Virus record (IMG/VR): IMGVR_UViG_3300022660_000043
Length of the DNA stretch: 64,000 bases
Origin: a virus
Taxonomy: Duplodnaviria > Caudoviricetes
Reading direction: 5' to 3' (one strand)
Shown here: positions 11,562 to 30,383 of the stretch, piece after piece
Numbering within the stretch: position 1 is the stretch's first letter
How the letters are laid out: each line of letters opens with the position of its first letter
Program-made: the position numbers and the translations under genes
The notes under the pieces: model-generated
What the model was told of the DNA's origin: nothing
What the model saw: only the letters and a program-made list of their open reading frames with translations
The model's database searches: none

Positions 11562-11851
11562 GGTCCAACTGTTTTTAGTAAATATCTGATAATTTGAAAA
11601 GAAATAAGTATGGACTCTATGTAAAAACGGCTTAGCTGTTAACTGTATTGGTTAGCGGGACGTTTAACCCGCTCATAATTAATTCTAGAAATAAGCATAA
11701 GCTCTACAAAGTTTTTTAAATTTAGGCCTGACTACTATGTATACCTACTATTCATCTAGAAAAGAAATAAGTACAGGCTCTGTTATAATAAATTGGCCAA
11801 ACTGCTACTTTTAAAATCCCAAATTTTATGTAAGAAATAAGTATTGGCTCT
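11562..11851 (-). ncRNA. Tandem array of 4 short bulged-stem RNAs (family A, Y-RNA-like)
   Basis: Units 11562-11618, 11629-11705, 11725-11781, 11795-11851. Each reads AGAG-N4-U-RCU-UAUUUCU...AGY-N4'-CC with compensatory changes; promoter at 11857-11866. Confidence 0.8.
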
Positions 11852-11856
11852 ATATT

Positions 11857-11866
11857 ATTATACAAT
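11857..11866 (-). promoter_or_regulatory. Recurrent sigmaA-like extended -10 promoter (ATTGTATAAT)
   Basis: Same 10-mer also at about 13352, 18366, 19818, 21576, 27079, 53671, 56191, 61320, mostly intergenic and upstream of minus-strand units. Confidence 0.75.
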
Positions 11867-11903
11867 ATATATTTTATTTTTTTGCTATTATTTTAGCAAA
11901 TTT

Positions 11904-12116
11904 TTACCAAGGCATTTCCTCTTCTGCATCTACAATTTCTCTCATTTGACCGGAGAAAATAGATACATCGCGCTCATCTACAATCAAAGCTCTTGACTTG
12001 TATGTATGACCAAGGTCATTGGTAAGTCTATAAGTTTTTCCTATCTCAAGATTAAGGTCTGAAAGAAACTCATAAGTATTCCTTCCGTAATGAAATTCTA
12101 CTTCATAAACTTTCAT
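11904..12116 (-). CDS. Hypothetical protein
   Basis: 70-aa ORF with GAGGAG SD. Confidence 0.7.
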   Translation of the reverse strand: MKVYEVEFHYGRNTYEFLSDLNLEIGKTYRLTNDLGHTYKSRALIVDERDVSIFSGQMREIVDAEEEMPW

Positions 12117-12138
12117 AAGACAAACTCCTCAAAATTTT

Positions 12139-12215
12139 TGGCACGCCTTATTGGATTCGAACCAATGACTTACTGCTTAGAAGGCAGTTACTCTGTCCAG
12201 CTGAGTTAAAGGCGC
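12139..12215 (-). tRNA. trnR: tRNA-Arg(UCU)
   Basis: Cloverleaf, loop CTTCTAA, CCA. Confidence 0.95.
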
Positions 12216-12218
12216 TTA

Positions 12219-12293
12219 TGGCACGCAGTACAGGAATCGAACCCATACCTTGTGGTCCGTAGCCACACGTTCTGTCCTTTAAACTAACCGCGC
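12219..12293 (-). tRNA. trnR: tRNA-Arg(ACG)
   Basis: Loop CTACGGA, CCA. Confidence 0.9.
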
Positions 12294-12307
12294 AAAATAT
12301 AATTTAA

Positions 12308-12383
12308 TGGTACTCGATACGGGATTCGAACCCATGTTTTTAGCGTGAGAGGCTAACTTCCTGGCCAACTAGAAGAATCGAGC
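12308..12383 (-). tRNA. trnE: tRNA-Glu(CUC)
   Basis: TTAGC-CTCTCAC-GCTAA, CCA. Confidence 0.9.
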
Positions 12384-12454
12384 ATAAAATACTAATTGAC
12401 AGGGGCTACATCCCTGTCTTAACAGCATCCTTTCAGACAATTAGTATATATGGT

Positions 12455-13343
12455 AAGAAGGTTAAAAGACTGAGAATACATCTTCATAATTGCTACGGCT
12501 TAATGACCTTATTGATTAGTCACTTTTCCACTTCCTTTTGGGAAGTACCGCTCATGCCTGCAATTCGTCACCCCAGCACAAGGGCTCCAGGCTTGCTTTC
12601 GCCTTTACAGAAACAATTACTCGATTATCACTCCACTATCAACCTTGCGGGCTGTTCGAGGTTGCTACGCCTCTATAGATTCGTTTCAATCAAATACCAA
12701 ATGCTTGTGACACTTGATATCCCAGATTGCTTACCACTCTGGGCTTAAGACACTTTTCTTTGTTTCCAACAATAGGTTTTTACTCATGACATTGTTTTCC
12801 TATGACAACCGCTCTGCCTACTGAGCTACCGGCGTATAAAAGAGATAAGTGCTAATTATCTCTATAGATAAAATTGGCACGCCGGGTGGGACTCGAACCC
12901 ACGCTAAGTTGAGATTTGACAGAAGACAGACTATTGTTGTAGTTCTCACACCTTTTGAGTGCAAGAATGCTACCCGCCTTCAACACTTTCCTTGGCTTCG
13001 TACTCGTATTTCTTATACCCACCGTAGCAGATATAAATGGAAGTCGCCCTTGCTTGCTAAAACTTGAACTATTTTACTTCCTGTAGCTTACCTTACCTCA
13101 TCAAATCCTTTTGCGTTGAAACCAGCTCCTTGCGAGAGCGAAAATAGTTCAGTCAGTTGACCCTACAACTATTTTCTTTTCATTTCATCATTGACAAGTT
13201 AGAACATGGGGTTAGCATATTCGTAAGAATCTTTTCAATTCTTACAGGTCCCGTCACACATTGCCTGAGGTACTGTTCATCACAGCGGAGTCTTGTCAGT
13301 ATACTCCTTTCATTCCCTTACGGGAAGTTATCGGTCAGGCCCG
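12455..13343 (-). ncRNA. Large structured ncRNA, GOLLD-like, containing a circularly permuted tRNA domain
   Basis: About 890 nt with no credible ORF, starting just after the promoter at 13352. Many GNRA/CAAAAGG hairpins and a 3' ...GUAUUCUCAG end resembling GOLLD as recalled; lies in a tRNA array. Confidence 0.55.
12807..12912 (-). ncRNA. Circularly permuted tRNA-like domain
   Basis: T-arm + CCGGCGU-GCCA (12875-12903) precedes ACGCCGG + D-arm (12811-12835); hairpin spacer between them. Confidence 0.8.
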
Positions 13344-13400
13344 TATATTATATTATACAATATAATTTTTAAAATTTTAATTTAATTTTTAAAAAATTTT

Positions 13401-13524
13401 AGGCTGTTTATTTCATTCCATTTACTACAGCTTCTGGTATTCACGACTATGTACAGTTGGACCCTCTACCACTTAAGGATAGCTCCCTCTATCGGTATAT
13501 ACACATGTCTGCTTCGTAGCACCT
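13401..13524 (-). ncRNA. Family B scaffold RNA copy 1
   Basis: AGGUGCUACGAAGC...AGCUGUAGUAAAUGGA...AAACAGCCU. Confidence 0.75.
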
Positions 13525-13528
13525 ATTA

Positions 13529-13615
13529 GTATCTTCAATAATATTCTCGCAACCTAAACTATCACGCCATAGCGGCGATGTGGGATTTCAACCCATGCCT
13601 TTATTCCGTCGATAC
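13529..13615 (-). ncRNA. Permuted tRNA-like (YrlA-like) RNA
   Basis: GUAUC/GAUAC closing stem, T-arm AUGGG-UUGAAAU-CCCAC, loop-closed acceptor stem, D-like arm. Confidence 0.55.
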
Positions 13616-13628
13616 ATTATAAAATAAT

Positions 13629-13786
13629 GAGCTGTTTTCACTTCCATTAACCACTAAACCATTTATACCTGTTCGGGGAGCTTTACTCCATAATTAGAGT
13701 CCTCTGCCGACGGCACATGCTAACACCGACAAGTTCTTAACACTCCGCTTGAGCATGCTGGGACTGTATAAATTCTTAGTGCACTC
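13629..13786 (-). ncRNA. Family B scaffold RNA copy 2 (divergent)
   Basis: GAGUGCACUAA...UUAGUGGUUAAUGGA...AAACAGCUC. Confidence 0.6.
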
Positions 13787-13789
13787 TTT

Positions 13790-13864
13790 TGGTAGCGGGT
13801 ACGGGAATCGAACCCGTCTCTCCGGCTTGAAGGGCCGGCGTCTTAGCCGCTTGACTAACCCGCC
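13790..13864 (-). tRNA. trnE: tRNA-Glu(UUC)
   Basis: Glu-type D arm GTCAAGCGGCTAAGAC; loop CCTTCAA (C33). Confidence 0.85.
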
Positions 13865-14290
13865 ATATTACTTTTACAATCATACCAGTTCAAAAGTAAT
13901 AAACGAAAGGGAGTTTACTCACGGTTATCTCGCCGTCGCTGCTCTGGTATTTCTTAGTCTGCGCAATTATATCACTATATAAGTGAAACCAGTGGGTGTG
14001 AAGGCAGGACTTAAACCTACTTATAACTCATTACTAAGTACATGGTACCGAAGTACATCACCTACTTTTCACTTCAACAAATCGGTCGTTATGCTTACAG
14101 CTGATATCATAACTTACCTATTGTAGCGTTGTCACCGGCATATGCTCCCGGCCGCCTCGATGCTTCGACTTCTTCACGATATTAAATGGCGATCTTAAGG
14201 TCGACCAACCGCACATCCTTTTACGTTGTACACTCTTAGCTAGCCAGTATACAACTCTGACCCAAAAGATATTTGCTATAAACGGCAACG

Positions 14291-14366
14291 TGGCTCGGGA
14301 TACAGGGCTCGAACCTGTGACAACGCGGTTAACAGCCGCGGGCTCTACCAACTGAGCTAATCCCGA
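14291..14366 (-). tRNA. trnN: tRNA-Asn(GUU)
   Basis: CGCGG-CTGTTAA-CCGCG, CCA. Confidence 0.95.
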
Positions 14367-14448
14367 ATATTAATGTGCCAAAAACTCCTCGAGAGTCACT
14401 TTTGCGCCCTCTAACGTGCAAAACAATGGACTTTATGTTTTTCTATCT

Positions 14449-14525
14449 TGGCGACTCCAGCGGGACTCGAACCCGCGGCCTTCAGCGTGACAGGCTGACG
14501 TGATAACCAGCTTCACCATGGAGCC
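14449..14525 (-). tRNA. trnD: tRNA-Asp(GUC)
   Basis: TCAGC-CTGTCAC-GCTGA, CCA. Confidence 0.95.
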
Positions 14526-14547
14526 ATAAAGGGCATTTAGCCCAAAA

Positions 14548-15579
14548 TTATAATTTACCTAAAAATTTATACTGAATAGTTGAATTTCTAATAAGCTCAG
14601 AGTCTAACAACTCCATAAGTTCTTCATAACTTTGTATATTAGATAACATATTCAAAACTATGCTGCTAGAACTTAAATGTCGTAAATACATTTTACAAAC
14701 CTTAATAGCATCTTTTAAATGTACAGCAGAATTAAAATTATTTTTATAAACTAGATGTTTTTTTAAAACAGTTATTAATCTTTCTGAAGTTAAATCGTCT
14801 ATAAATTCGCCTTTTAATAAAGCTAAAGAATCTTGAAAGATAAATGGATTTCCCATAGCGCCTCTAGCAATCATTACACTATCTACTTCACAATACTCAA
14901 ACATTCTTAAAACATCCCGAGCATTAAAAAGATCACCATTACCTACTACAGGTATCTTAACTGCTTTTTTCGCTTTCTTAATATTATCTAGACTATTTGT
15001 ATTACATTTATAAGCATCAGTATAAGTTCTACCATGAACCGTAATAAAATCAACACCACAGCTTTCAGCCATACGTGCAAAATCAACAACATTTACAGAT
15101 TTAGCATCCCAACCAGTACGAATCTTTATACTTAAGGGTAAATTAGTAGATGATCTGGCTGCGCGTATAACTTTTTCAGCTCTTTTTAAGTCTTTCAGAA
15201 AACAAGCCCCTTCATTCAAATTAATGATATTAATATTTGGACATCCCATATTTAAATCAATAACTTTAGGCAATGTAGTAACTTTACGACCTAAATATTT
15301 ACCAGAAGATAAAGCCCCTATACAAAAAGCTGTATCTTTTTCAGCAAAACACCGTAGTTGCACGCCAATTGGCTCGGTACTTTCGTAGTCAATAATAGCA
15401 GCATTATTAAAAGTTGTAGCTAACTTATTCGTCTGCTCCTTAAAAAAACCACGAGTTGATACAAACTCTGTAAAACAAAATTCTGCTCCAAAATCTAAAC
15501 AAATTTTACGAAAAGCTTTATCTGTAATATTTGTCAATGGTGCTAGCATAAGCTTCGGCGGAATAAATTTATTACTCAT
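14548..15579 (-). CDS. dus: tRNA-dihydrouridine synthase (DusB-like)
   Basis: LAPL, IDLNMGCP, KIRTGWD, VHGRT, GNGD, MIARGAMGNP motifs. Confidence 0.92.
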   Translation of the reverse strand: MSNKFIPPKLMLAPLTNITDKAFRKICLDFGAEFCFTEFVSTRGFFKEQTNKLATTFNNAAIIDYESTEPIGVQLRCFAEKDTAFCIGALSSGKYLGRKVTTLPKVIDLNMGCPNINIINLNEGACFLKDLKRAEKVIRAARSSTNLPLSIKIRTGWDAKSVNVVDFARMAESCGVDFITVHGRTYTDAYKCNTNSLDNIKKAKKAVKIPVVGNGDLFNARDVLRMFEYCEVDSVMIARGAMGNPFIFQDSLALLKGEFIDDLTSERLITVLKKHLVYKNNFNSAVHLKDAIKVCKMYLRHLSSSSIVLNMLSNIQSYEELMELLDSELIRNSTIQYKFLGKL

Positions 15580-15599
15580 ATAAACCCCCTAGCTTACTT

Positions 15600-15682
15600 T
15601 GGTGCGGGCGAAGAGACTTGAACTCTTACGTACTGGACACTAGATCCTAAGTCTAGCGCGTCTGCCATTCCGCCACGCCCGC
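15600..15682 (-). tRNA. trnL: tRNA-Leu(UAG)
   Basis: CTAGA-CTTAGGA-TCTAG, variable arm, CCA. Confidence 0.95.
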
Positions 15683-15686
15683 ATAT

Positions 15687-15815
15687 AGTATCCCTAACAA
15701 GCCTCGCACTTGTATCTTTGGATTATCGTCCAATGCTCTAGCCTACCGGACCTCTGAAAACTAAGCTTATACCATTCGTAGCTTTCATAACCTTTTGAGC
15801 TATTATTGAGATACT
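15687..15815 (-). ncRNA. tRNA-like RNA with about 50-nt D-loop insertion
   Basis: AGTATCTC/GGGATACT stem, GCTC-AAAAGG[insert]CTA-GAGC, TTGGA-CGATAA-TCCAA, ACAAG-TGCGAGG-CTTGT. Confidence 0.55.
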
Positions 15816-15920
15816 GAAAATTATACGCCGAACATCCTATTGGCACGCTTTCACCTTGCGGGACTTCTATTGTTTATTTGCTAGCAGAATTTGAACCATT
15901 AACTATGGCGTATTTTTTTC

Positions 15921-15996
15921 TGGTGGACCCAAAGGGGATCGAACCCTTGACCCCAAGCTTGCAAAGCTTGTGCTCTCCCAGCTGAGCTATGGGCCC
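15921..15996 (-). tRNA. trnA: tRNA-Ala(UGC)
   Basis: Loop TTTGCAA, G3:U70, CCA. Confidence 0.95.
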
Positions 15997-16010
15997 ATAT
16001 TTATTTTTAT

Positions 16011-16096
16011 TGGTGGGAGGGGTGGGAGTCGAACCCACTCACCACGAGGGAACGGATTTACAGTCCGCCGCGACTCTCCGACTTCGCCGCCCTCCC
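16011..16096 (-). tRNA. trnY: tRNA-Tyr(GUA)
   Basis: Loop CTGTAAA, variable arm, CCA. Confidence 0.95.
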
Positions 16097-16247
16097 ATAA
16101 AAACTCGTCTTTCCGAGTTGTCAAATAAGGTGACCATAAACCAATCTTAGCCGAAGTTTTAACCTTATTTATCTCTCACTGCCATCATCAATGAAAGCCT
16201 TAGCAAGTTCTTTTTGTGTGCCTCAGATGGAAGACTACACACGGTAT

Positions 16248-16340
16248 TGGCGGAGGCGGCTGGATTTGAACCAGCGGAGGAGTATTAAGCCCCTCGGCTC
16301 CTTAGCAGGGAGCTGGTTTAAGCCTCTCACCCACGCCTCC
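16248..16340 (-). tRNA. trnS: tRNA-Ser(GCU)
   Basis: Loop CTGCTAA, long variable arm, CCA. Confidence 0.95.
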
Positions 16341-16564
16341 ATACCATACAATATAATATACGACATGAGTTTTTATTTTTTAGCTACTTACCATTAATTT
16401 AGCAGATAAAATAAAATAATTTTAATAAAAATATCAGGTCTCTGTTATTTACCTCATACCCTAATGGAATCGAACCATATCCCCTCCCGTTTTTAACCTG
16501 ATTAACGCGGCGAGAATGACCCTCTGAGCGCAGAATCGAACTGCAATAACAGTGTTTTATGTAA

Positions 16565-16816
16565 TTAGATATGAAACAAATTATAAATGCACTTATAAAT
16601 GAACATACATGGTGATACAATACCAAGGGCAATCCAAGTAAGTACACAACCAACCCAGTTCATTTTAGTGCCACGCTTTAGAGAGGCAGGTGATAATAAT
16701 TTATATTCTTTCTTATTATCACAACAACTTTTCCATTCTGCACCTTCAATAGCACATGGAAAAATCAAAATAAATGCAAAGAATATAATAACAGCTGCCC
16801 ATTGCTGAGGTGCCAT
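16565..16816 (-). CDS. Small membrane protein
   Basis: 83 aa, two hydrophobic segments. Confidence 0.65.
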   Translation of the reverse strand: MAPQQWAAVIIFFAFILIFPCAIEGAEWKSCCDNKKEYKLLSPASLKRGTKMNWVGCVLTWIALGIVSPCMFIYKCIYNLFHI

Positions 16817-16947
16817 TAAAGCTGTGCCTCAAGAGCTCTGCGCTTGCGAAGCTGCTTCTTAATGATAGGTGCATTCAGAGTCTCGCCACGAGACTTAAGA
16901 ATACCAATTCTGATATCAATAGCCTTGATCTTATCTTCTACAGTCAT
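16816..16947 (-). CDS. Small basic protein (43 aa)
   Basis: Not in track: MTVEDKIKAIDIRIGILKSRGETLNAPIIKKQLRKRRALEAQL; stop overlaps next ATG. Confidence 0.65.
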   Translation of the reverse strand: MTVEDKIKAIDIRIGILKSRGETLNAPIIKKQLRKRRALEAQL

Positions 16948-16952
16948 AATTC

Positions 16953-17480
16953 TTAATTCCCTTCATTTTGATTTGTTAGTGGTACATTAATACCTTGAAT
17001 AAACCCGCGAGCAGGTGGTACCCTTACAGCATTACTTCCAGAAGTAGGTGGAGCTGGAGGTTTTTGAGGACTACCTTGAGGTTGATATGGACGTCCAGAA
17101 CCATTATTACCTTGTGGCCCTGCTGCTTGATTGGGCTGCATATTTGGTGATCTCTGAGGAGGATTATTTGGCATTCTACCAGCCATAGGAGATAGAACCC
17201 TACCAGATCTCATATCAGGCGGCTGATGCTGATTATCATTTTCTGCTTTAAGCTTATCCATAATCAGCATATTTATTGTTGCTCTTATATTCAGAAGATC
17301 TTGAACAGATAAAGCATCTTTTTCAAGCTTTGTAATATCTTTAGGTAAAGCAATAATTCTATCACCATATAGCTTTCTAAGTTGCTGCATTGAATTATTT
17401 AGCCCTTGAGGACTAGTACCTAATTTATAATACAATACATGAATCTTCTTTTCTTCTGTTTCTTTAAGAATTTTTTCCAT
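16953..17480 (-). CDS. Hypothetical protein with Pro/Gln/Asn-rich disordered C-terminus
   Basis: 175 aa, translationally coupled to the peptidase gene. Confidence 0.75.
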   Translation of the reverse strand: MEKILKETEEKKIHVLYYKLGTSPQGLNNSMQQLRKLYGDRIIALPKDITKLEKDALSVQDLLNIRATINMLIMDKLKAENDNQHQPPDMRSGRVLSPMAGRMPNNPPQRSPNMQPNQAAGPQGNNGSGRPYQPQGSPQKPPAPPTSGSNAVRVPPARGFIQGINVPLTNQNEGN

Positions 17481-18310
17481 TACTTTTTCTTAAACAAGCG
17501 GCCAAAGAAATTAATAATCTTATTAAAAACTCTTACATACCACTTATCGGTAGGTCTTACGATATTCTCATCATCTACAATAGAATCAGTAATTAACCAA
17601 GCTTCGTACCACTTGAAATCAAAAGGAAGAATAAACTTTCCTTTACGACCCCATCCATGACCCCAGCTGTTCTGAACAAGCCAACCTTGCTCATTCCAGC
17701 CATAGATAAGTACTGCATGACAGCCACGAGTTTCAGGATTCTCAAAAGTATAGACTCCATCCTTAAGCTTATAATCTACATGCCAAGGCATTGAAATAAG
17801 CACAGGTCCATACTTCATAAGAGCCTGCTTAACACCAGTAGTAGAATTTACTTGCATATAAGTTGAGACTCTGTGAGGATAAGCTACTTCCTTAAGCTCT
17901 TCTAATTGAGCATTTACTGCTTCCATAGCTTCCGGACAATCATGGTTGCCTCTAAGCTTCGTGAGCGGTACATCTCCGACTTTTTGAAGAGTCTTAAGTG
18001 CCTCTCTTGGATACATGCCCTCACCTACATAATAGCCATCTGGGCGATAGCCATAAATAAATTCTGTACTGAAAATAGTATTTTCACCAGTCTGACGCTT
18101 ACTGTGGAACTCTACAACTGAAGAACAAGCATGAGCTACACAGCTTCCGGTACTTCCCTGATCTTTCACTGCGATATTTACATTAACATTTTCATTTGCT
18201 GTGCAATCAAACGTATCTGGAAGTGGTGTTTCTGCTACACATGCAAACTTATAATCTCGCACATCATATGGAGAAATTAGATTTGTAAACCTACGATCTT
18301 CAACTCGCAT
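17480..18310 (-). CDS. Papain-like cysteine peptidase (C1)
   Basis: QGSTGSC (catalytic Cys), GCHAVLIYGW (His), QNSWG (Asn). Confidence 0.92.
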   Translation of the reverse strand: MRVEDRRFTNLISPYDVRDYKFACVAETPLPDTFDCTANENVNVNIAVKDQGSTGSCVAHACSSVVEFHSKRQTGENTIFSTEFIYGYRPDGYYVGEGMYPREALKTLQKVGDVPLTKLRGNHDCPEAMEAVNAQLEELKEVAYPHRVSTYMQVNSTTGVKQALMKYGPVLISMPWHVDYKLKDGVYTFENPETRGCHAVLIYGWNEQGWLVQNSWGHGWGRKGKFILPFDFKWYEAWLITDSIVDDENIVRPTDKWYVRVFNKIINFFGRLFKKK

Positions 18311-18617
18311 TAAAGAACTCCTTAAAATATAAAAAAATAATATTGAAGCTAAAAGACTTCAATATATTATACAATATATTTAATATTATTTTAAGCATTT
18401 TGCCAGAGGTATTTCAGATAGCTTTTAGCGTACTACATTAAAAATGTCTACTTGCGTTCAACCCCAGTCTTGCTATCAAGGCGTTTGGACTCACTTTACT
18501 AGCTTCCTACCTGTAATATGATACAAGTCTATGTAAAGGTTCGGTGATGCCACTTGTATACCGCTGCTTTCCCTCTTCCCTTGCGGTGACCGTTTATTCT
18601 TAGCTACGGACAAACTT

Positions 18618-18693
18618 TGGAGCTGACACCCAGACTTGAACTGGGGACCTCATCCTTACCAAGGATGTGCTCTACCAACTGAGCCATGCCAGC
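18618..18693 (-). tRNA. trnT: tRNA-Thr(GGU)
   Basis: CATCC-TTGGTAA-GGATG. Confidence 0.95.
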
Positions 18694-18696
18694 AAA

Positions 18697-18772
18697 TGGT
18701 ACAGCCCTAAAGAGTCGAACTTTATGTGCCGGCTTATAAGGCCGGTCCTCAATACCGTCGAGGACGAGCTGC
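18697..18772 (-). tRNA. trnI: tRNA-Ile(UAU)
   Basis: CCGGC-CTTATAA-GCCGG, atypical D arm, CCA. Confidence 0.8.
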
Positions 18773-18788
18773 ATAATATAATATAAAA

Positions 18789-18865
18789 TGGTGGAAGGGA
18801 TGGGTATCGAACCCATGTCCTCTGGTTTTTCAGACCAGCGCTCAGACCTCCTAAGCTACCCTTCC
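18789..18865 (-). tRNA. trnF: tRNA-Phe(GAA)
   Basis: CTGGT-CTGAAAA-ACCAG. Confidence 0.95.
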
Positions 18866-18868
18866 AAG

Positions 18869-18943
18869 TGGTCGGGATGACAGGAGTCGAACCTGCCTGA
18901 TCTAGTTCCCAAAACTAGCGCGTAGCCGATACGCTACATCCCG
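18869..18943 (-). tRNA. trnP: tRNA-Pro(UGG)
   Basis: CTAGT-TTTGGGA-ACTAG. Confidence 0.93.
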
Positions 18944-19194
18944 AAATATTGCCAGTCAAAGCCTTTTTGTGCTGTTCTCACATTATCTTACTGGCTGGGT
19001 GGGTGAATTTTAATTAGCCACTATCACCGTCGTGGCGCGCCTAATGAACAGCTAGCGTGGCAACCGGCGGACTACGTACCTTTCTAACTCATTGAGTTTG
19101 CAACCTCTCCGAGGAACATCCTTTCGCACACGAGGGCCCGTAACTTTGAGCCGGCTTTGTTATTCGACGAAAACTAGTATAAACCGAACCGGTC

Positions 19195-19270: not shown

Positions 19271-19273
19271 ATA

Positions 19274-22747: not shown

Positions 22748-22863
22748 CTTTTAATGACACATATACTTCTTAAAGCATATGTAAAGATAATGTTTTTCTT
22801 AGCTCCCCACCTAGCTAAACACATACATACCCACAAGTTTTCACTCGTTTATGTATTCCCTTT

Positions 22864-22948
22864 TGGTGCTTAAGGTGGGACTTGAACCCACACGTGTTGC
22901 CACTGCGGTGTTTGAGACCGCCTCGTCTGCCAATTCCGACACTCAAGC
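22864..22948 (-). tRNA. trnL: tRNA-Leu(CAA)
   Basis: GCGGT-CTCAAAC-ACCGC. Confidence 0.93.
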
Positions 22949-22959
22949 AGGTAAAGATC

Positions 22960-23151
22960 TTATCTAGATTTTTCAATTGGCCAATCAAGAATCTTTCGAC
23001 CATCTTGGCGATACATATAGCTAGTTAACTTACAATGGCTACACTCTAATAGCTTCTTTGTTCCGAGGTGTGGTGTCCAAAACCATTTCCAAAAGCTTGT
23101 GATTTCATTTGTATGTGCACAATACTTACAAATATATCTTACTTTCATCAT
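22960..23151 (-). CDS. Small zinc-ribbon protein
   Basis: CxxC...CxxC. Confidence 0.65.
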   Translation of the reverse strand: MMKVRYICKYCAHTNEITSFWKWFWTPHLGTKKLLECSHCKLTSYMYRQDGRKILDWPIEKSR

Positions 23152-23157
23152 TAACTC

Positions 23158-23799
23158 CTAAATAATTTGATAACACCAAATATAACCATAAGCGGTTTTA
23201 CGTTTACCGTTACAAACATCAGCAATATGTCCAGCTGAACCACGATCTGTTTGTTTATTTTGCACTTTACCTAAAGCTTTCACAGCAGCTAAAGTAGACG
23301 GAAAGGTTGCAATATATTCACCCGTAAGTGAGTATTGTTCAACAGCTTTTCCAGTTTTTTCTAATAGCACCTCAGAAGATGTTCTCACATCAACTTGCTT
23401 AATTCGTAAAATTTTACGAACTGTTTCCCGGTGGATATTAAGTCTGTCTGCTACGGCTGAAATGGTACCGAGTTGTTTATATGCAGTAACCACTAAGTCA
23501 TAGTCTAAGTATTTTTTACCATCGCCACCCAAAGTAGCATTATAGCCCTGCTTATAGGTCTGCTTAGTCGAAATCCAAAATATTTCACGTTCTTCGGGTG
23601 ACTCTGTTTCTTCCAATAATTCAATATGAAAATGTTCAATACCGTACTTTCGCATTGCAGCATATAAAGGACGTTTTTCACAACGATTGCGAAAAGCTTC
23701 TTTACAATGCTCTTTAAACCTACGCTCGATTGCAAATTCAGTCTTCCCTATATAACTTTTATTATTTATGTCATTAATAATTTCATAAATATAAGCCAT
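23158..23799 (-). CDS. GIY-YIG homing endonuclease with NUMOD1-like C-terminus
   Basis: YIY...YIG, RFxEH, GYN, KTAYGYIW; free-standing within the tRNA array. Confidence 0.9.
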   Translation of the reverse strand: MAYIYEIINDINNKSYIGKTEFAIERRFKEHCKEAFRNRCEKRPLYAAMRKYGIEHFHIELLEETESPEEREIFWISTKQTYKQGYNATLGGDGKKYLDYDLVVTAYKQLGTISAVADRLNIHRETVRKILRIKQVDVRTSSEVLLEKTGKAVEQYSLTGEYIATFPSTLAAVKALGKVQNKQTDRGSAGHIADVCNGKRKTAYGYIWCYQII

Positions 23800-23820
23800 A
23801 GTGAATACCTCATTTAAATC

Positions 23821-23895
23821 TGGTGCACCCGGTGGAACTCGAATCCACGACTCTCTGATTAAAAGTCAGATACTCTACCACTGAGTTACGGGTGC
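23821..23895 (-). tRNA. trnK: tRNA-Lys(UUU)
   Basis: TCTGA-CTTTTAA-TCAGA. Confidence 0.95.
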
Positions 23896-24296
23896 ATATG
23901 TTAAACAGAAGTTGCTTAAGGTGAACCACTGTATCTTGGGCGCCTCGGTGCAGGGCGCTTAAAAAGATCTTAATGATATAGCCGCATATATCAAGCCGAT
24001 ATTATAACCAGTACATTTTATTATACGATGTTTTGACCGTATTTTTACATACTTTTTAAAAATAAATAGCGCCAAAAAGTTCTTAAAACCTCTTGACGCT
24101 AATACACTCTTATATTATAAAGCCTGTATTAACGTTTTCGGGGTGGTTTCAATGACTTGGATCCAAAAAAGGGCATAGCTCCGCCACATACAGTTTTTAT
24201 TGTACTAAGTGATACAAAATGTGACATAACTTTACTCTCCTTTAGATTTTTTCATTCTAATTAATTTAGCGTATAATTTTTATTAAAAAATAAATT

Positions 24297-24418
24297 TGGA
24301 CACGGCAGTCGGTTATTACCCGACTCCTCTTCAACTCAGCTATCTGCTGCAGCTTAATAGCGTCAACGTTTCTCTCTTCCCTGTGATTTGGGTGCTCTCA
24401 CTTATGAACTATACCGTG
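24297..24418 (-). ncRNA. Aberrant CCA-ending tRNA-like RNA with expanded central region
   Basis: CACGGTA/TGCCGTG-TCCA, D arm GTTC..GAGC, T-stem GTCGG/CCGAC with non-canonical loop. Confidence 0.6.
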
Positions 24419-24425
24419 ATATGTA

Positions 24426-24731
24426 TTAAATAATTTTAATACTCTCAAACACTTTACCATCAGCTTCTATATTAATTTGCTGATTAAGATCTGGAGTAAT
24501 TATATAAGTAATTCCAAAAGATTTGCCGAATTCATATTCTCCATAAGTCTTTGTTATTGGAGACTTCACAAAGCCATTGAAGAATACAAGGATAGGAGCA
24601 ACATCACCTGAGCATTTACAAACTAAATTAGTTCCTTTAAGAGCAGTAGTTTCTAAAATCAAATCTTGAAGTGTATTATTCCATTCAAATTTAGTCTTAC
24701 CAATAGCAGGTGCTTTTGACCAAATAATCAT
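24426..24731 (-). CDS. Hypothetical protein
   Basis: 101-aa ORF with SD. Confidence 0.65.
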   Translation of the reverse strand: MIIWSKAPAIGKTKFEWNNTLQDLILETTALKGTNLVCKCSGDVAPILVFFNGFVKSPITKTYGEYEFGKSFGITYIITPDLNQQINIEADGKVFESIKII

Positions 24732-24844
24732 AAATCAGCTTTCCTCTCTCTTAAAGATTCCTTCTTTGTTTTACTCGTAGCTTATAGGTACCTATAATCT
24801 TAACGTTTTCAGTTTTCTGTTGAAGGATAGTCATACTCTGGAGC

Positions 24845-24918
24845 TGGCTGCCCATCAAGGTATCGAACCTCGGCATTCCGGGTCAGAGCCGGACGCTCTA
24901 CCATTAAGCTAATGGGCA
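24845..24918 (-). tRNA. trnQ: tRNA-Gln(CUG)
   Basis: Loop CTCTGAC, CCA. Confidence 0.93.
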
Positions 24919-25013
24919 GTATAAAAGTAATCAAGTAATACTTCTAATCGGTTTATTTGGACATAGCCCCAAAGGGGAACCGTAAGTTCTCTAACCAAAC
25001 TTGATTACTTATC

Positions 25014-25205
25014 TGGCTGGGGTGGCAGGATTTGAACCTGCGAATCCGGGAGTCATGGTGCCTGAGGTGAGATTTGAACTCACGACGAGGTGCTTTCCCC
25101 ATAGTCTAAGTAGTTTCCATCTTAGCATTTCGGGTTGGTCCCCAGCTCTTCCAGACTGAGGTACTCAGACAAGTCCCGTGCCTTAACCAACTTGGCCACA
25201 CCCCA
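25014..25205 (-). tRNA. trnQ: tRNA-Gln(UUG) interrupted in the anticodon by a 115-nt tRNA-like insert
   Basis: 5' part 25205-25171 (TGGGGTG...CGGGACTT) + 3' part 25055-25014 (TGACTCCCG...CACCCCAGCCA) joins into a canonical 77-nt tRNA-Gln. Confidence 0.9.
25056..25170 (-). ncRNA. Nested tRNA-like element inside tRNA-Gln anticodon
   Basis: GTCTGAG/CTCAGGC-ACCA acceptor, D arm, T arm GTGAG-TTCAAAT-CTCAC; anticodon arm replaced by about 60 nt. Confidence 0.85.
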
Positions 25206-25294
25206 ATATAAAATTATCGGTTCACCATGAGAAGCAGACACGACTATCTTACGATATTAACTTCCCCTGCACTCTAGTTCTCAAGTGTTAACCG

Positions 25295-25369
25295 TGGTGG
25301 ATAAGGTAGGAGTCGAACCATACTTCCCGCGGGACGTTTAACGTCTGCATTCCACAATGCTACTTACCC
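25295..25369 (-). ncRNA. tRNA-like RNA with collapsed anticodon loop
   Basis: GGGTAAG/CTTATCC-ACCA; GACG-TTAAA-CGTC; TTCGA T-loop. Confidence 0.65.
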
Positions 25370-25552
25370 ATAAAATTTGGAAACTTTCTGCACTTTGTGA
25401 ACAGAGGTTTACCAACCCTGATGCATCATCGCCGCTTTATGCTTTCGTCACTAAGCGTCCGTCAAATATACCGTTGTTGAACTCAAGAGTTTAATTTATC
25501 AGGAGCTACCCTGAAAGGAAGTTTGCACAACAACAGACTGATCTTCCCGCGC

Positions 25553-25629
25553 TGGTGGGCATAGATGGACTCGAACCATCGACCTTTCGCTTATCAGGTG
25601 AATATTCTAACCAGCTGAACTATATGCCC
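25553..25629 (-). tRNA. trnI: tRNA-Ile(GAU)
   Basis: Loop CTGATAA, CCA. Confidence 0.95.
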
Positions 25630-25636
25630 ATATTTT

Positions 25637-25713
25637 TGGCAGGGGCTGGAGGACTTGAACCCCCGACACCCAGTTTTGGAGACTGGTGTTCTTACCAACT
25701 GAACTAAACCCCT
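25637..25713 (-). tRNA. trnW: tRNA-Trp(CCA)
   Basis: CCAGT-CTCCAAA-ACTGG. Confidence 0.95.
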
Positions 25714-25914
25714 ATAGGACACCGAAGGCTAGTAGCAATCTTTCTGCACGTTAGTGAGACGTTAGTCAGACAGTTTTCACCTTCTATCAACAAAGCACTA
25801 CCAATATTGATACAGGGGTTCGGAGCCTCCCTGGTACTGATTAGTTTTTCACAGCCGACGATGGTCACACAGCACTTCCCGCACCGTTACCTTACTTAAA
25901 TTTTCTATACTATA

Positions 25915-26002
25915 TAGTACCGCGATAGAGGATTCGAACCTCACCTTCAGCGCAGATTTAACTGCCAGGACCAATGCTCTACCAATTAAGCTAGCACGCG
26001 GA
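25915..26002 (-). ncRNA. Degenerate tRNA-like RNA
   Basis: Canonical D arm GCTTAATTGGTAGAGC and T-loop, irregular anticodon region, no CCA. Confidence 0.55.
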
Positions 26003-26156
26003 TATTGAACAAATAGTTAGTAGCGCAAGAACCTTATCTACTTTTTAACGCCTCAACCTAATGGTATTTTGGTGGCGCGATTTCTTATCCACCTTTGATG
26101 CAAACTATTTGTCTATTTATACATTATATAATGTAATCGAAGGTTAAACATCTCTG

Positions 26157-26518
26157 CCAATAAACTAAATAAGGAACACTTACTCTACGCCGAGACACTG
26201 GAGCAGATAATTAAATGGATGGACTCGAACCATCGACATGCCCCTTATCACGGAGCTGCTCATATCCAACTGAGCTACATTTAATTAGTGTTTAGTTGGT
26301 CTGCGTAGCCACACCTCATCCTAAGCCCTACCTTCATGCCGTTCAGTCTGACGTCTTGTATACAGACTTACTAGCGCCTACTCCATATCAAGCTGGAGGA
26401 ACCTCTCGTGGTACGATTCTTGTTTACAGTCTTTACTTCTTCCACCACATTATCGGGGCCCTTTGACATTAGCCATTCTTGTGAATGGTTCGCCTCAGTG
26501 TGTTATTTAGTTTATTGG
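26157..26518 (-). ncRNA. About 360-nt RNA closed by a 16-bp stem with an embedded tRNA-Ile(GAU)-like domain (26211-26284)
   Basis: ccaataaactaaataa (26157-26172) / ttatttagtttattgg (26503-26518) perfect inverted repeat; internal cloverleaf lacking CCA. Confidence 0.6.
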
Positions 26519-26743
26519 TTTTGACGCCGAATTACCTAGTAGCTCATTAATGCCATGCTTTAATCCAAAGAGGTAGTTATCGTCCCTCTTGAACTACCAG
26601 ATAACCGATAAAAATAAGTATTAGCATAGAAATCTAATCATGCCCCTCACGATAAGTACTGAGGATTAACGCACCTCAGGTGGGCTAACGCCAGACTTAA
26701 CTACAAGATATATCATTTCACTTATAATCAGTTTCTGGATTTC

Positions 26744-26830
26744 TGGTGCCCCTGACCGGAATCGAACCGGTACGGCCTTGCGGCCAACGGATTTTAAGTC
26801 CGTTGCGTCTGCCAGTTCCGCCACAGGGGC
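26744..26830 (-). tRNA. trnL: tRNA-Leu(UAA)
   Basis: ACGGA-CTTAAAA-TCCGT, variable arm. Confidence 0.95.
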
Positions 26831-26840
26831 ATATTAAATT

Positions 26841-26948
26841 ATACCTGCTCGGGAGTCGAACACCGAATCTCCTCCTTTGAAGGGAGGGGCTCTGTCCCTT
26901 AAATTGACGTGTAAAACCATCCAGGATTTGCCGTTAAGCTAACAGGAC
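26841..26948 (-). ncRNA. tRNA-like RNA with UCA anticodon and about 36-nt D-loop insertion
   Basis: CCTCC-CTTCAAA-GGAGG; GCTTAACGG[insert]CAGAGC; imperfect acceptor stem, no CCA. Confidence 0.65.
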
Positions 26949-26956
26949 TTTTATTA

Positions 26957-27073
26957 AGACCAAGCTAAATGAAAGCTGGAGCTCTCCCATCTGAGCTACA
27001 TCCCAAAGCGGAATGACGGGGCTCGAACCCGTGACCACCAGCTGGAATAATCAAAGAAATAAGCATTGGTTCT
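26957..27073 (-). ncRNA. Family A RNA with permuted tRNA domain (YrlA-like)
   Basis: AGAACCAAUGCUUAUUUCUU...T-arm, loop-closed acceptor, D-arm...AGCUUGGUCU. Confidence 0.85.
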
Positions 27074-27091
27074 AGTATATTATACAATAGA

Positions 27092-27700
27092 TTAACAAGA
27101 AATTTGACTTAAATTTGTAATTGTTCGATCAAGTTTTTCTTGAGTCCACCAACCATAGGTGTCTAAAATATCAAGATTAGCCTTAAGCTCATACAGCTTA
27201 TCGAGAATGGCCTGTTTCTGCTCTTCTGTGATATGTCCAACACGATGAACTAACCTAGTACGCTCAACTGACACGATTGAAGCAGTATTAAAAGAGCTAG
27301 GAAATCTTAAATTACAAGCAGTATGATTAGGAACCTCTACAAGATAATCTAGAAGCGAAGCAGGATGGCTAGTAGTTAACTGAAAACCATAAACTCTAAA
27401 AGCATTCGCATAAATAACAAGAAGTGGACGACGAATATGATCTAAGTTAATGTTTCTACCATACTGAAAAAGATCTGCAACAAGAATATCACCACGCTGA
27501 AACTCTACTAAGTCTGTTCCATAATCTTCTGTTATATCAGCAAAAGGTAAGTCTTGATACTCAACTTCTTCTTGCCACCCAAGATTAGGGTCGAGATCAA
27601 GTGCATCAGCAAAAGGAGAAGGTTTTAAATCCTCATACAAAGAACTTAAAACATCAAACACATTATCTTCTTCACAGATATAAAAACCGTCCTCTCTCAT
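27092..27700 (-). CDS. PemK/MazF-like endoribonuclease with acidic N-terminal extension
   Basis: FQRGDILVADL...RRPLLVI...QLTT...IVSVERTRL..RVGHI; start reassigned to the ATG after AGGAG. Confidence 0.75.
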   Translation of the reverse strand: MREDGFYICEEDNVFDVLSSLYEDLKPSPFADALDLDPNLGWQEEVEYQDLPFADITEDYGTDLVEFQRGDILVADLFQYGRNINLDHIRRPLLVIYANAFRVYGFQLTTSHPASLLDYLVEVPNHTACNLRFPSSFNTASIVSVERTRLVHRVGHITEEQKQAILDKLYELKANLDILDTYGWWTQEKLDRTITNLSQISC

Positions 27701-27721
27701 CATAACTCCTCTAAATAAAAC

Positions 27722-27865
27722 GGCCAAGCTAATATATACGTTGCTCTACCACTGAGCTACAATCCACGAGTATTGGCCTTATTCAGGCAGTGCCTCCATC
27801 GGAAAGGTAGGACTCGAACCTACGACCTACGGCTTAGCAGGCATTAAGAAATAAGCATTGGCTCT
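27722..27865 (-). ncRNA. Family A RNA with permuted tRNA domain (YrlA-like), enlarged acceptor loop
   Basis: AGAGCCAAUGCUUAUUUCUU...GUAGGUUCGAGUCCUAC...GCUCAGUGGUAGAGC...AGCUUGGCC. Confidence 0.85.
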
Positions 27866-27896
27866 GTATTATATTATACGATATAAATAACTTAGA

Positions 27897-28199
27897 TTAA
27901 GCGTATTTTACAATAATTCTGAAAATATTTTTCTGTTCACTAAGTGCGGCGACAAGGTCTCTAAGGCGTTTATACTTAGTGCCACACCAATAAAGCTCTC
28001 CTTGTTTATTACGATATTCCCTATCTACAAAAGCCATCAATTCAATACAGTCAGGATATTCATCAAAAGTAAACTCTTCGAACTCTACACTAAATTTAAG
28101 TACCTCTTTGTGTGTTTGCAAAAATCTATCTACCAAGGAATCCCTTGCCCAACTGTTATCAAAGTTCTTATGAACAATCATCTTGTCAGAATAAATCAT
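27897..28199 (-). CDS. Hypothetical protein
   Basis: 100 aa, preceded by TGCTAAATTA motif. Confidence 0.7.
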   Translation of the reverse strand: MIYSDKMIVHKNFDNSWARDSLVDRFLQTHKEVLKFSVEFEEFTFDEYPDCIELMAFVDREYRNKQGELYWCGTKYKRLRDLVAALSEQKNIFRIIVKYA

Positions 28200-28270
28200 A
28201 AAACTACCTTTAATATATAATTTAGCAGAAATTTAAGGGCGTAGCATAAAACTACACCCTTATTTTGTTT

Positions 28271-30244
28271 TTAGGCGTTAACCAGAGTAGAAAGCTTCTC
28301 TACATCGAAGGAACGAATTACGATCTGCTCTCTGGTAGAACCGTCTTCTGCCTCAGGAAGATTCTTAACCTTAGAAACATAGTCATTTGCAAAGACAATA
28401 TCTGCCTCCTCAGGAGTCTCAACTAGTTCACCACGCCAAGAAGCGATCAAGCCCATGTTAAGCTCAAGCTTAGAAGCATCGAGATACTGAGCCATTACCT
28501 GAAGCTCACGACCGGTAACAACTCGAGAGTCATCATCAGTCATAAGATTAAGGACAATAATCTCATTAGTCTCAAAGTCGATTGCAAAGCCAACGTAAGC
28601 GCGCTTTTCACCCTTGACGTGCATCTTAAGCTCGATATTCTTAGGATCCCAAGCACGAGTCATAAGATCAGTCTTCTGCTGATAGCCACAGTAAATCTCA
28701 CCCTCATTGAGAGTAGAACGGAAACCATGGAAAGTAAAGATCAGCTTGCTTGCACCAAGATGGCGCATTGCACCAAGACGAATATCATAGTACTCAGTAC
28801 CGTCACGCGAGGTGTTATCACCAGAGAACAGCAGAGCATTGCCAAAACGCTTGTTGCTATAGTTACACCAGTTAACAGTAGTCATGATATTGTTATCCTT
28901 ATCGAGAACGATAACAGAAGAGTCAATATCAAACGCATTCTCCCAATGTACGAAAGTACGGATATTATCGGCAGTAATAGGCAGACGAGTACCAGTAGGA
29001 ACAATGTCAATGCCACGACCGCTTGCAGAAGTGTTTACAGGCATAGCAACCTTATAGAAGTCAGGATGTACGTAAACCTTACCCAGAGACTCAAGGGCAC
29101 GGTAGTGACCTTCGATCTTTGCAAGGCAAGTATCATGTACAAGCTTCTTGGTAGCATCGTTGAGGCGAGACTTACGCCAACGAGCCTCATACTCAGTCTC
29201 AACGTGTGCCTTTACACGATTCTTTGCATAGAAGGAGAAAGTACGAGCCTCCTCCGAGTCTGCCATAACGGTAGACATAAGCTGATAAAGAACAATAGGA
29301 TTCTTATCAGAAAGCATATCAAGAATCTTTACTGCCTCTACAGGGTTTGCACGAGAAAGCAGGAACTTAAGGTTACGCTCAAGCAGAGAACCACTCTTAG
29401 CAAATACTTCAGCGGCTCCAAGAATGTCACCATTCTTGAGCTTCTCAGTAGCAATACGATTAGGGGACTGAGCGTTAGTAGTAGGCTTTATATTACGCAC
29501 CTTAGTAAGCTGAACAAGCTTGTTGTAGAACTTTGCCTGCTTCTTAGACATAGGACAATCCTTAACAAGAAGAATAGCCTTACGAATAAGCTCCTTGGTG
29601 TCAGGATCAAGAGTAAGCTCCTTCTTCTCACCGCAGCGAGCAATAGAAAGCTTTACAAGATCCTTCTTATACAGGAAGCGAGCAAAATTGATATCGCGCT
29701 CCATCATAAACACAGCGTTATCACCACAAGCTACATCGTAGTTGTTGTAGTAACCAAGGTTATAGAGCTCTACGAACTCTACCTGCTCATCAAGGCCCCA
29801 AGGACGCTTATAGCCACAGTAGTCCTTAGCGATATCACAGAGAACTACATTTGCCTCATCTACATCGAGGATCTTAAACTCACGAAGCTTGATATCGGAA
29901 CCAACCTCATACTCAGGGAGCTGCTTATCGAATACCTTTACGTGAGAATCATCTGCGCCGTAAGCGAAGAAATAAGACAGAACCTGCTCAATAAAGAGCT
30001 CATCACGAGTGTAATAGCTCATATCCTGAGGATTCTTAAAATAAGACGCAGGAACCTCAAGACGATATTCGTCAGAAATAGCCTTAACGTGGCCCTTGGT
30101 GAGCAGCTCAGGCTTATCCACAACAATACCAAAGTTTGCAAACAAGAAAGCATTAAGGTAGGCCTGCTCCACCTTAGTACCAGCCTCAACAGGCTCTGCC
30201 TGCAGATAACGACGAGAAATGAGAATCTTAGAAATATTCTTAAT
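28271..30244 (-). CDS. Large helical protein with C-terminal TerD-like domain (candidate TROVE/Ro-like RNP subunit); probable AUU start
   Basis: IRTFVHW..DIDSS...FSGD...TEYYDI TerD-like motifs; strongly biased codons; GGAGG 5 nt before in-frame ATT. Confidence 0.75.
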   Translation of the reverse strand: MKNISKILISRRYLQAEPVEAGTKVEQAYLNAFLFANFGIVVDKPELLTKGHVKAISDEYRLEVPASYFKNPQDMSYYTRDELFIEQVLSYFFAYGADDSHVKVFDKQLPEYEVGSDIKLREFKILDVDEANVVLCDIAKDYCGYKRPWGLDEQVEFVELYNLGYYNNYDVACGDNAVFMMERDINFARFLYKKDLVKLSIARCGEKKELTLDPDTKELIRKAILLVKDCPMSKKQAKFYNKLVQLTKVRNIKPTTNAQSPNRIATEKLKNGDILGAAEVFAKSGSLLERNLKFLLSRANPVEAVKILDMLSDKNPIVLYQLMSTVMADSEEARTFSFYAKNRVKAHVETEYEARWRKSRLNDATKKLVHDTCLAKIEGHYRALESLGKVYVHPDFYKVAMPVNTSASGRGIDIVPTGTRLPITADNIRTFVHWENAFDIDSSVIVLDKDNNIMTTVNWCNYSNKRFGNALLFSGDNTSRDGTEYYDIRLGAMRHLGASKLIFTFHGFRSTLNEGEIYCGYQQKTDLMTRAWDPKNIELKMHVKGEKRAYVGFAIDFETNEIIVLNLMTDDDSRVVTGRELQVMAQYLDASKLELNMGLIASWRGELVETPEEADIVFANDYVSKVKNLPEAEDGSTREQIVIRSFDVEKLSTLVNA

Positions 30245-30326
30245 ACCTACCTCCAAAAAAAATTAAAGTGATTTATTTTTAGATACCTACCCCTACCAAA
30301 ATAAACCACTTGATTGTTTTTATTTT

Positions 30327-30383
30327 GGCCTAACTATAAATAAAATTTTTGCAGAATTTTGTTAAGAAATAAGTATAGGCTCT
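30327..30383 (-). ncRNA. Family A short RNA in the leader of the TerD-domain gene
   Basis: AGAGCCUAUACUUAUUUCUU...AGUUAGGCC. Confidence 0.8.

What the first reader, a model, noticed from the sequence alone, without database searches (positions are those of the whole stretch)
11562..30383. Seven-member Y-RNA-like family (four tandem minis, two tRNA mimics, one in the leader of a helical+TerD protein)
Seen: seven elements (11562, 11629, 11725, 11795, 26957, 27722, 30327) share a 5-bp stem / bulged U / 3-bp stem followed by UAUUUCU. The stems covary fully: GCCAA/UUGGC, GCCUG/CAGGC, GCUUA/UAAGC, GUCCA/UGGAC, GCCUA/UAGGC, ACCAA/UUGGU. Each locus has its own -10 box. Two copies enclose a circularly permuted tRNA domain; the rest have short AU-rich loops. 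Known: YrlA RNAs combine a Ro60-binding bulged helix with such a permuted tRNA module. Inference: the helical+TerD protein at 28271-30244 is the cognate Ro/TROVE-like partner, loading interchangeable effector modules, and the leader copy could autoregulate it. The stem lacks the GNCGAA YrlA signature, so it may be a distinct family. TROVE-TerD-linked RNAs may already have been predicted in RNA-repair surveys, so novelty needs checking.
Basis: partly seen in the sequence, partly recalled or inferred. Interest (0 to 1): 0.9.

Follow-up and report, generated by a model that had tools for sequence, protein, structure and literature searches.

The report
Y-like RNAs displaying swappable anticodon loops
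This large phage encodes seven small RNAs that share one protein-binding "handle" and always travel with a Ro60-shaped protein, and many carry a real tRNA anticodon loop that changes between close relatives, which suggests an undescribed RNA-protein decoy kit against host enzymes that cut tRNA.

Summary

New here: the "AU-rich loops" are often anticodon stem-loops. 25 of 57 seven-base hairpin loops match real tRNA loops, against 0.6% in shuffles. The permuted tRNA at 27723-27862 keeps an anticodon loop, which YrlA lacks, and its anticodon switches (Ser, Asn, Arg, Lys) among close relatives. Best reading: a non-Ro60, Y-RNA-like particle displaying tRNA decoys against anticodon nucleases. Binding, expression and function are untested. 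The scan noted this RNA/protein pairing before in other genomes. I found no paper on it, but one key survey (Burroughs and Aravind 2016) could not be read.

The parts
11562..11618 (-). Y-like RNA copy 1 (mini; handle GUCCA/UGGAC; short AU hairpin, no recognised tRNA part)
11629..11705 (-). Y-like RNA copy 2 (handle GCUUA/UAAGC; GC-rich hairpin loosely resembling a T arm)
   Evidence: T-arm likeness is my reading of the sequence
11725..11781 (-). Y-like RNA copy 3 (mini; handle GCCUG/CAGGC)
11795..11851 (-). Y-like RNA copy 4 (mini; handle GCCAA/UUGGC; hairpin with tRNA-Pro(UGG) anticodon loop at 11823-11817); first of the tandem four, 5 nt after TATAAT
26958..27073 (-). Y-like RNA copy 5: YrlA-type permuted tRNA (tRNA-Gly-like body, handle replaces the anticodon loop)
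27092..27700 (-). PemK/MazF-like ORF (202 aa) between copies 6 and 5; accessory, present in few relatives
   Evidence: Pfam PF02452 E 1.2e-7; 1 of 100 loci, also L186 and L187
27722..27865 (-). Y-like RNA copy 6: permuted tRNA that keeps an anticodon loop (GC-CUGCUAA-GC, loop 27840-27834, Ser GCU); handle grafted into the 5' strand of the anticodon stem
28271..30244 (-). 657-aa helical (Ro60-shaped) + TerD protein, RING-less relative of MXAN_6230/SCO0854; candidate RNA partner; start codon uncertain (homologous ATG reads AAG)
30255..30312 (-). Long hairpin followed by a U-tract between the leader RNA and the ribosome-binding site; conserved in close relatives; possible attenuator
   Evidence: predicted folds only
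30327..30383 (-). Y-like RNA copy 7 in the gene leader (handle GCCUA/UAGGC; 6-bp stem with tRNA-Cys(GCA) anticodon loop at 30354-30348)
30648..31589 (-). Polynucleotide kinase-HD (RNA end-healing type) gene upstream; syntenic in the closest relatives
   Evidence: 15 of 100 loci

Best explanation
The elements are genes for a family of small RNAs built like Y RNAs: a constant terminal handle plus a swappable cargo. The handle is the binding site for the neighbouring Ro60-shaped/TerD protein, which protects the paired ends and displays the cargo (inferred from linkage, co-variation of handle type with protein subfamily, and analogy to Ro60; binding not tested). The cargos are pieces of tRNA: bare anticodon stem-loops, T arms, permuted tRNA bodies with or without an anticodon loop, and whole tRNAs (shown in sequence). 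Most have a closed acceptor end and so cannot be charged or decode. Their likeliest job is to act as stable decoys or competitive inhibitors of host proteins that recognise anticodon loops, above all anticodon nucleases of anti-phage defence (inferred). This would protect the real tRNA pool, alongside the phage's 33 tRNAs, Pnk-HD and RNA ligase. Anticodons are exchanged as the set of host nucleases changes. Odds: real RNA family 0.97; cognate particle with this protein about 0.8; decoy as main function about 0.5.
For: Handle covariation without circularity: 178/215 own complement against 0.18% for others; 215 hits on the gene strand, 0 opposite. Linkage: 87/100 loci, 236/236 hits on the gene strand; 59/68 with a leader copy. 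Complete relatives hold the protein but no TROVE gene. Homologues at about 25% identity carry arrays with different, subfamily-specific stems around the same UAYUUC-type core, including cultured phages Weasels2, WXIN, LpeD, XacN1 and RcXuper and chromosomal loci. Four Ro60 chains align over 272-301 residues. Anticodon loops: 30/97 dereplicated minis against 1.9 +/- 1.3 in shuffles; 25/57 seven-base hairpin loops equal real tRNA loops against 0.6%, reverse-strand control 0/56. 18 of 25 loop-bearing permuted copies have natural loops. In alignment A3 the GC-YU and RA-GC flanks are fixed while the triplet varies; all 22 pairs hold in all rows, 8 with compensatory change. Orthologous copy 6 reads Ser here, Asn in L186 and L001, Arg in L188, Lys in L187; the leader copy reads Cys here and Ser in L186. 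Lys UUU, Asn GUU and Thr UGU make up 11 of the 25 and are the main AriB targets (PMC12409363); Lys UUU is the PrrC target (PMC10264068). Competitive inhibition was already suggested for YrlA (PMC7790460).
Against: No expression, binding or functional data. More than half of the minis have no recognisable anticodon loop, including window copies 1-3. Cys GCA, the commonest mini loop, is not a target of the nucleases I checked. The overlap with AriB targets was not tested against a null, and AriB is an E. coli system while the host here is unknown. Chromosomal homologues with a single leader copy and no clear anticodon loop (L021-L023) suggest a more general role. One record rated complete (G003) has a handle copy but no detectable protein. 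Sequence homology to TROVE was not detected. Loci are related by descent, so counts are not independent events.
Confidence: 0.5

Rival explanations
1. RYPER-like tether: the same particle, but the tRNA-like cargo recruits a host or phage RNA enzyme (PNPase, tRNA-modifying enzymes, Pnk-HD, ligase) to the ring for RNA decay or repair. The anticodon loop is then a docking site, not a decoy.
For: Y RNA tethers Ro60 to PNPase in Deinococcus (PMC4201824) and in Thermus phage phiLo (PMC12135203). Pnk-HD is adjacent in 15 loci. RtcB lies near the Weasels2 homologue. T-arm-only cargos exist.
Against: A fixed partner does not explain anticodon switching on an otherwise identical scaffold, nor up to nine different cargos per genome.
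Confidence: 0.25
2. Cis-acting protein-binding site: the handle is an operator or processing signal for autoregulation of the gene and for cutting the long tRNA-cluster transcripts. Cargos are captured tRNA debris with no function.
For: Leader position in 59/68 loci; a single leader copy in several chromosomal loci; conserved hairpin plus U-tract before the ribosome-binding site; copies interspersed among tRNA genes.
Against: Most copies in phages are not upstream of a coding gene and several have their own promoter motif. Cargo helices show compensatory change and the anticodon-loop flanks are invariant, which debris would not keep.
Confidence: 0.13
3. Permuted tRNA precursors: the handle is excised and the ends ligated, then the acceptor loop is opened, giving a working tRNA on demand.
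For: Joining ACG to GC in copy 6 restores a normal 5-bp anticodon stem. Several relatives have an ACCA in the acceptor loop. The phage has Pnk-HD and an RNA ligase. This route was raised for YrlA (10.1101/312249).
Against: Copy 6 has two U-U mismatches in its acceptor stem and no CCA. Some relatives close the acceptor with a UUCG-type loop. Minis cannot yield tRNA. The phage already encodes intact tRNAs with the same loops.
Confidence: 0.07
4. Type III toxin-antitoxin: the RNAs neutralise the PemK/MazF-like RNase that lies between copies 6 and 5.
For: PemK-like ORF flanked by two copies with no protein antitoxin seen; a PemK gene also lies near the LpeD homologue.
Against: Found in 1 of 100 loci plus two close relatives; L001 and L188 have the same two RNAs adjacent with no such gene.
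Confidence: 0.05

Closest known systems
YrlA Y RNAs with bacterial and phage Ro60/Rsr (Rfam RF02553; PMC4201824; 10.1101/312249)
   Same: Terminal stem plus permuted tRNA body (T arm, closed acceptor, D arm); encoded beside and on the same strand as a helical ring-type protein; several RNAs per locus; handle reads GCCAAUGCUU against GGCGAAUGCUU in the Rfam consensus.
   Different: No GNCGAA motif; scores below the Rfam cut-off; the partner has TerD and no detectable TROVE sequence. YrlA lacks the anticodon loop (10.1101/312249), whereas many members here keep one or consist of one. Up to nine copies per genome, most of them 45-65 nt minis.
Thermus phage phiLo Ro60 with Yrl1/Yrl2 (PMC12135203)
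   Same: Phage-encoded ring protein with small RNAs in its leader; proposed counter-defence role; its structure 9l5y aligns over 272-294 residues.
   Different: Canonical HEAT+vWA Ro60 and CGAA-motif RNAs acting on PNPase; no TerD, no anticodon cargo.
MXAN_6230/SCO0854 (NCBIfam NF041916) and Prok-RING_4 (PF14447) proteins
   Same: Sequence hit E 1.7e-18 over residues 266-566; whole-chain TM 0.79 to an Atlas model of that family. From memory, Pfam describes them as ROT/TROVE-like repeats plus TerD with a possible RNA role.
   Different: No RING finger detected, far below the equivalog cut-off (66 against 600 bits); I found no paper assigning RNAs to them.
Phage tRNAs as counter-defence against anticodon nucleases (PMC10264068, PMC12409363)
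   Same: Same conflict and overlapping isotypes (Lys UUU, Thr UGU, Asn GUU).
   Different: Those are working, cleavage-resistant tRNAs that replace the host's. These are mostly non-chargeable mimics whose loops match natural tRNA loops, so they could act only by competition or baiting.

Membership tests
YrlA (RF02553) | Permuted tRNA domain: T arm, closed acceptor stem, D arm | tested here: met
   Copies 5 and 6; not the five short copies
YrlA (RF02553) | GNCGAAN0-1G motif near the 5' end | tested here: not met
   5' ends read GCCAAUG, ACCAAUG, GCCUAUA etc.
YrlA (RF02553) | Score at or above the 69-bit gathering threshold | tested here: not met
   35.5 and 33.7 bits. YrlA-type hits beside true TROVE genes in L199 and L201 also scored only about 40, so this test is weak.
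YrlA (RF02553) | Encoded within about 4 kb of a TROVE-domain Ro60 gene | tested here: not met
   No PF05731 in the neighbour or in 4 near-complete relatives
YrlA (RF02553) | No anticodon loop | tested here: not met
   Copy 6 and 25 permuted relatives carry one; copy 5 conforms to YrlA
Y RNA (functional class) | Binds its ring protein through the 5'/3' stem; discrete transcript | not testable with these tools
   Only indirect: linkage and covariation.
Ro60/TROVE proteins | TROVE sequence profile (PF05731) | tested here: not met
   No Pfam hit; profile-profile comparison with a 35-sequence, low-diversity TROVE alignment gave probability 0.4%
Ro60/TROVE proteins | Helical-repeat ring fold | tested here: inconclusive
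Ro60/TROVE proteins | C-terminal vWA domain | tested here: inconclusive
TerD-fold proteins | TerD beta-sandwich | tested here: met
MXAN_6230/SCO0854 (NF041916) | Equivalog score of 600 bits and a RING finger | tested here: not met
   66 bits; no PF14447 hit. Related fold.
Type III toxin-antitoxin | Constant linkage of an RNA array to a PemK-fold toxin | tested here: not met
   PemK-like gene in 1 of 100 loci

The most novel reading that the evidence does not exclude
A widespread, undescribed ribonucleoprotein platform in which a Ro60-shaped TerD protein holds a library of non-coding anticodon decoys. Phages re-programme it by swapping anticodon loops to neutralise whichever tRNA-cleaving immune effectors their hosts carry: an RNA-based, modular sponge for anticodon nucleases.
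Probability: 0.4. Interest if true: 0.92.

Novelty: new variant of a known kind. Interest (0 to 1): 0.8.

Why it matters
What the tRNA-like domain of bacterial Y RNAs does has been open since 2014; competitive inhibition of anticodon nucleases was suggested but YrlA has no anticodon loop to test it with. This family supplies natural variants that differ only in the anticodon, so the decoy idea becomes directly testable. If true, it adds a new mode of phage counter-defence (non-coding decoys rather than resistant tRNAs or repair) and gives a function to a large uncharacterised protein family (1192 clusters at 50% identity hit). It would also show the Ro/Y plan realised with a different protein and handle. 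A cultured phage on a harmless host (Rhodococcus phage Weasels2) carries a four-copy array that includes a Lys-loop permuted tRNA.

Tried and rejected
Rfam at gathering threshold: no hit on any of the seven. Pfam and PHROGs on the protein: none. PDB sequence search with the family profile: nothing significant. Foldseek against PDB did not list Ro60; in the viral library a TROVE protein appeared only at E 0.014. The first structure model from a shallow alignment was poor (pLDDT 70) and was not used. The profile comparison with TROVE was negative but used a narrow Paenibacillus-type alignment. Reverse linkage test: of 53 viral stretches with the 5' motif, 7 lacked a 3' partner (chance hits). Of nine paired records not already known, eight are fragments of 3-59% completeness without the gene and one rated complete also lacks it, so this direction is only partly confirmed. 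No whole genome is held for the window. Papers not available: Burroughs and Aravind 2016 (three identifiers tried) and two Wolin-lab reviews; the look-up also failed. Searches for Ro60+TerD, tRNA mimic+TerD and the family names found no description. No covariance model was built, because the cargo varies from 15 to 120 nt and a descriptor with swap and strand controls served better.
Full report
Setting. The window is part of a large phage-like genome with nearly all genes on the minus strand, 33 tRNA genes, a GOLLD RNA, a dihydrouridine synthase, a kinase-HD protein, a PemK-like ORF and an RNA ligase. Relatives are 220-290 kb contigs.

Observation. Shuffles give 0.65 loose and 0 strict hits. 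Each starts AGA or similar just after a TATAAT box or after the previous copy. Copies 5 and 6 contain T arm, closed acceptor and D arm and hit YrlA below threshold.

The handle is a real helix. To avoid circularity I collected hits by the 5' motif alone in 100 homologue loci plus the window. There were 215 unique hits on the gene strand and none on the other, with 64 different stem sequences. 178 have their own exact complement downstream, while complements of other copies' stems occur in 0.18% of trials; most of the rest pair through G-U. The bulge is U in 196 and C in 19.

Linkage to the protein. 87 of 100 loci of homologues (38-82% identity) carry at least one strict copy, and all 236 are on the gene strand. 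In 68 non-redundant loci with enough upstream DNA, 59 have a copy within 300 nt of the start; five of the seven misses show variant handles on inspection and two are partial genes. Near-complete relatives hold 7-9 copies, one copy of the protein and no TROVE gene. Homologues at about 25% identity have their own arrays: a 7-bp stem without the bulge before UUAYUUC in L179-L185 and in phages Weasels2 and LpeD, a similar core in RcXuper, and UUCCUUC in chromosomal loci and XacN1. WXIN has a further variant. Handle type thus follows protein subfamily, as expected of a cognate pair. One exception is on record: G003, rated complete, has one copy and no detectable gene.

The cargos form a graded series: minis of 43-66 nt, T-arm-only forms, permuted tRNAs and whole unpermuted tRNAs. 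Among dereplicated minis, 30 of 97 have a stem of at least 4 bp closing a YUNNNRH loop, against 1.9 +/- 1.3 in shuffles. Conditional on a hairpin with a 7-base loop, 25 of 57 loops equal a loop seen at least twice among 475 real tRNAs from these loci, against 0.6% in shuffles and 0 of 56 on the reverse strand. Positions 37-38 mostly follow the tRNA type (Pro GA, Glu AC, Lys AA). In the window, copy 7 shows Cys GCA and copy 4 Pro UGG, identical to the phage's own tRNA loops. Copy 6 belongs to a class of permuted tRNA in which the handle is grafted into the 5' strand of the anticodon stem, leaving GC-loop-GC plus three upper pairs. All 22 pairs hold in all 11 distinct rows, 8 with compensatory change, and the triplet varies between fixed flanks. 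The orthologous copy reads GCU here, GUU in L186 and L001, UCU in L188 and UUU in L187; the leader loop is Cys here and Ser in L186. The same cargos recur on the distant handles (Lys CUU in Weasels2; Cys and Ile in L183; Lys and Val in L184). YrlA lacks the anticodon loop (10.1101/312249).

Mechanism. Shown: RNA structure, family, linkage, cargo identity and switching. Inferred: the protein binds the handle as Ro60 binds Y RNA (PMC4201824), and the cargos work in trans. Most cargos cannot be charged, yet keep natural anticodon loops that change quickly, which is the pattern expected of bait for proteins that read anticodon loops. Anticodon nucleases are common anti-phage effectors (PMC10264068). 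The main AriB targets, Lys UUU, Thr UGU and Asn GUU (PMC12409363), make up 11 of the 25 loop-bearing permuted copies; I did not test this against a null. Competitive inhibition was proposed for YrlA (PMC7790460). I put the decoy reading at about 0.5. Tethering of RNA enzymes (0.25), a cis-acting site (0.13), tRNA precursors (0.07) and a type III antitoxin (0.05) are the rivals. The leader copy is followed by a conserved hairpin and U-tract, so autoregulation by attenuation could be a second role.

Novelty. The system works like Ro60/YrlA but fails the YrlA membership tests (motif, partner, anticodon loop), and the protein is not a TROVE member by sequence. I found no paper that links TerD proteins to such RNAs; the jumbo-phage review mentions only ROT/TROVE proteins with a tRNA-like partner (PMC7824862). 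Burroughs and Aravind 2016 could not be read and may mention the pairing. Earlier notes of this scan report the same RNA/protein pairing in other genomes; three hold the words anticodon and decoy, but their text was cut, so I cannot say whether the anticodon-loop cargo was noted before. The statistics and the switching between relatives were established here. Verdict: a real, apparently undescribed variant of the Ro/Y plan with a testable counter-defence hypothesis; interest 0.8.

Noticed in passing
window 12467-12982 (-): GOLLD RNA at 156 bits (cut-off 150) with an insertion of about 86 nt that contains tRNA T-arm and D-arm sequence in permuted order.
   Followed up: no
window 30244-30239 (-): The start ATG of the 98%-identical relative L186 is AAG here; an in-frame AUU lies just upstream.
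   Followed up: partly
window 27092-27700 (-): PemK/MazF-like ORF with an acidic N-terminal extension, inserted between RNA copies 6 and 5; absent from L001 and L188.
   Followed up: partly
window 14548-15579 (-): Phage-encoded dihydrouridine synthase inside the tRNA cluster (Pfam E 5e-57); not seen in the homologue loci, which reach at most 10 kb from the gene.
   Followed up: no
window 26841-26950 (-): tRNA-like sequence directly after copy 5 that ARAGORN does not call.
   Followed up: no
L129 10896-11071 and L071 near 16346: Nested elements: a complete handle RNA sits inside the acceptor loop of a permuted-tRNA element.
   Followed up: no
L010 18347-18448, L071 16412-16516, L115 126-229: Handle closing around a whole, unpermuted tRNA-like body with an odd anticodon loop.
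   Followed up: partly
L013 12445-12560, L069 9800-9914: Permuted copies with the loop CUACAAA (anticodon ACA, unusual in bacteria) in a 3-bp stem.
   Followed up: no
L004 12106-12164, L184 3759-3813: A two-part cargo (small GNRA-type hairpin plus Lys UUU anticodon stem-loop) is shared between the close and the 25%-identity subfamilies.
   Followed up: partly
L153 7284-7630 (Rhodococcus phage Weasels2): Unannotated array of four related RNAs after gp266, one a permuted tRNA with a Lys CUU loop; RtcB about 3 kb away.
   Followed up: partly
L182 3731-3916: Chromosomal homologue with two handle copies directly after a class Ib tRNA synthetase gene; one cargo contains the Trp loop sequence CUCCAAA without a clean stem.
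   Followed up: no
L158 (G003, 727): Single handle copy inside a tRNA cluster of a record rated complete that has no detectable partner gene.
   Followed up: partly
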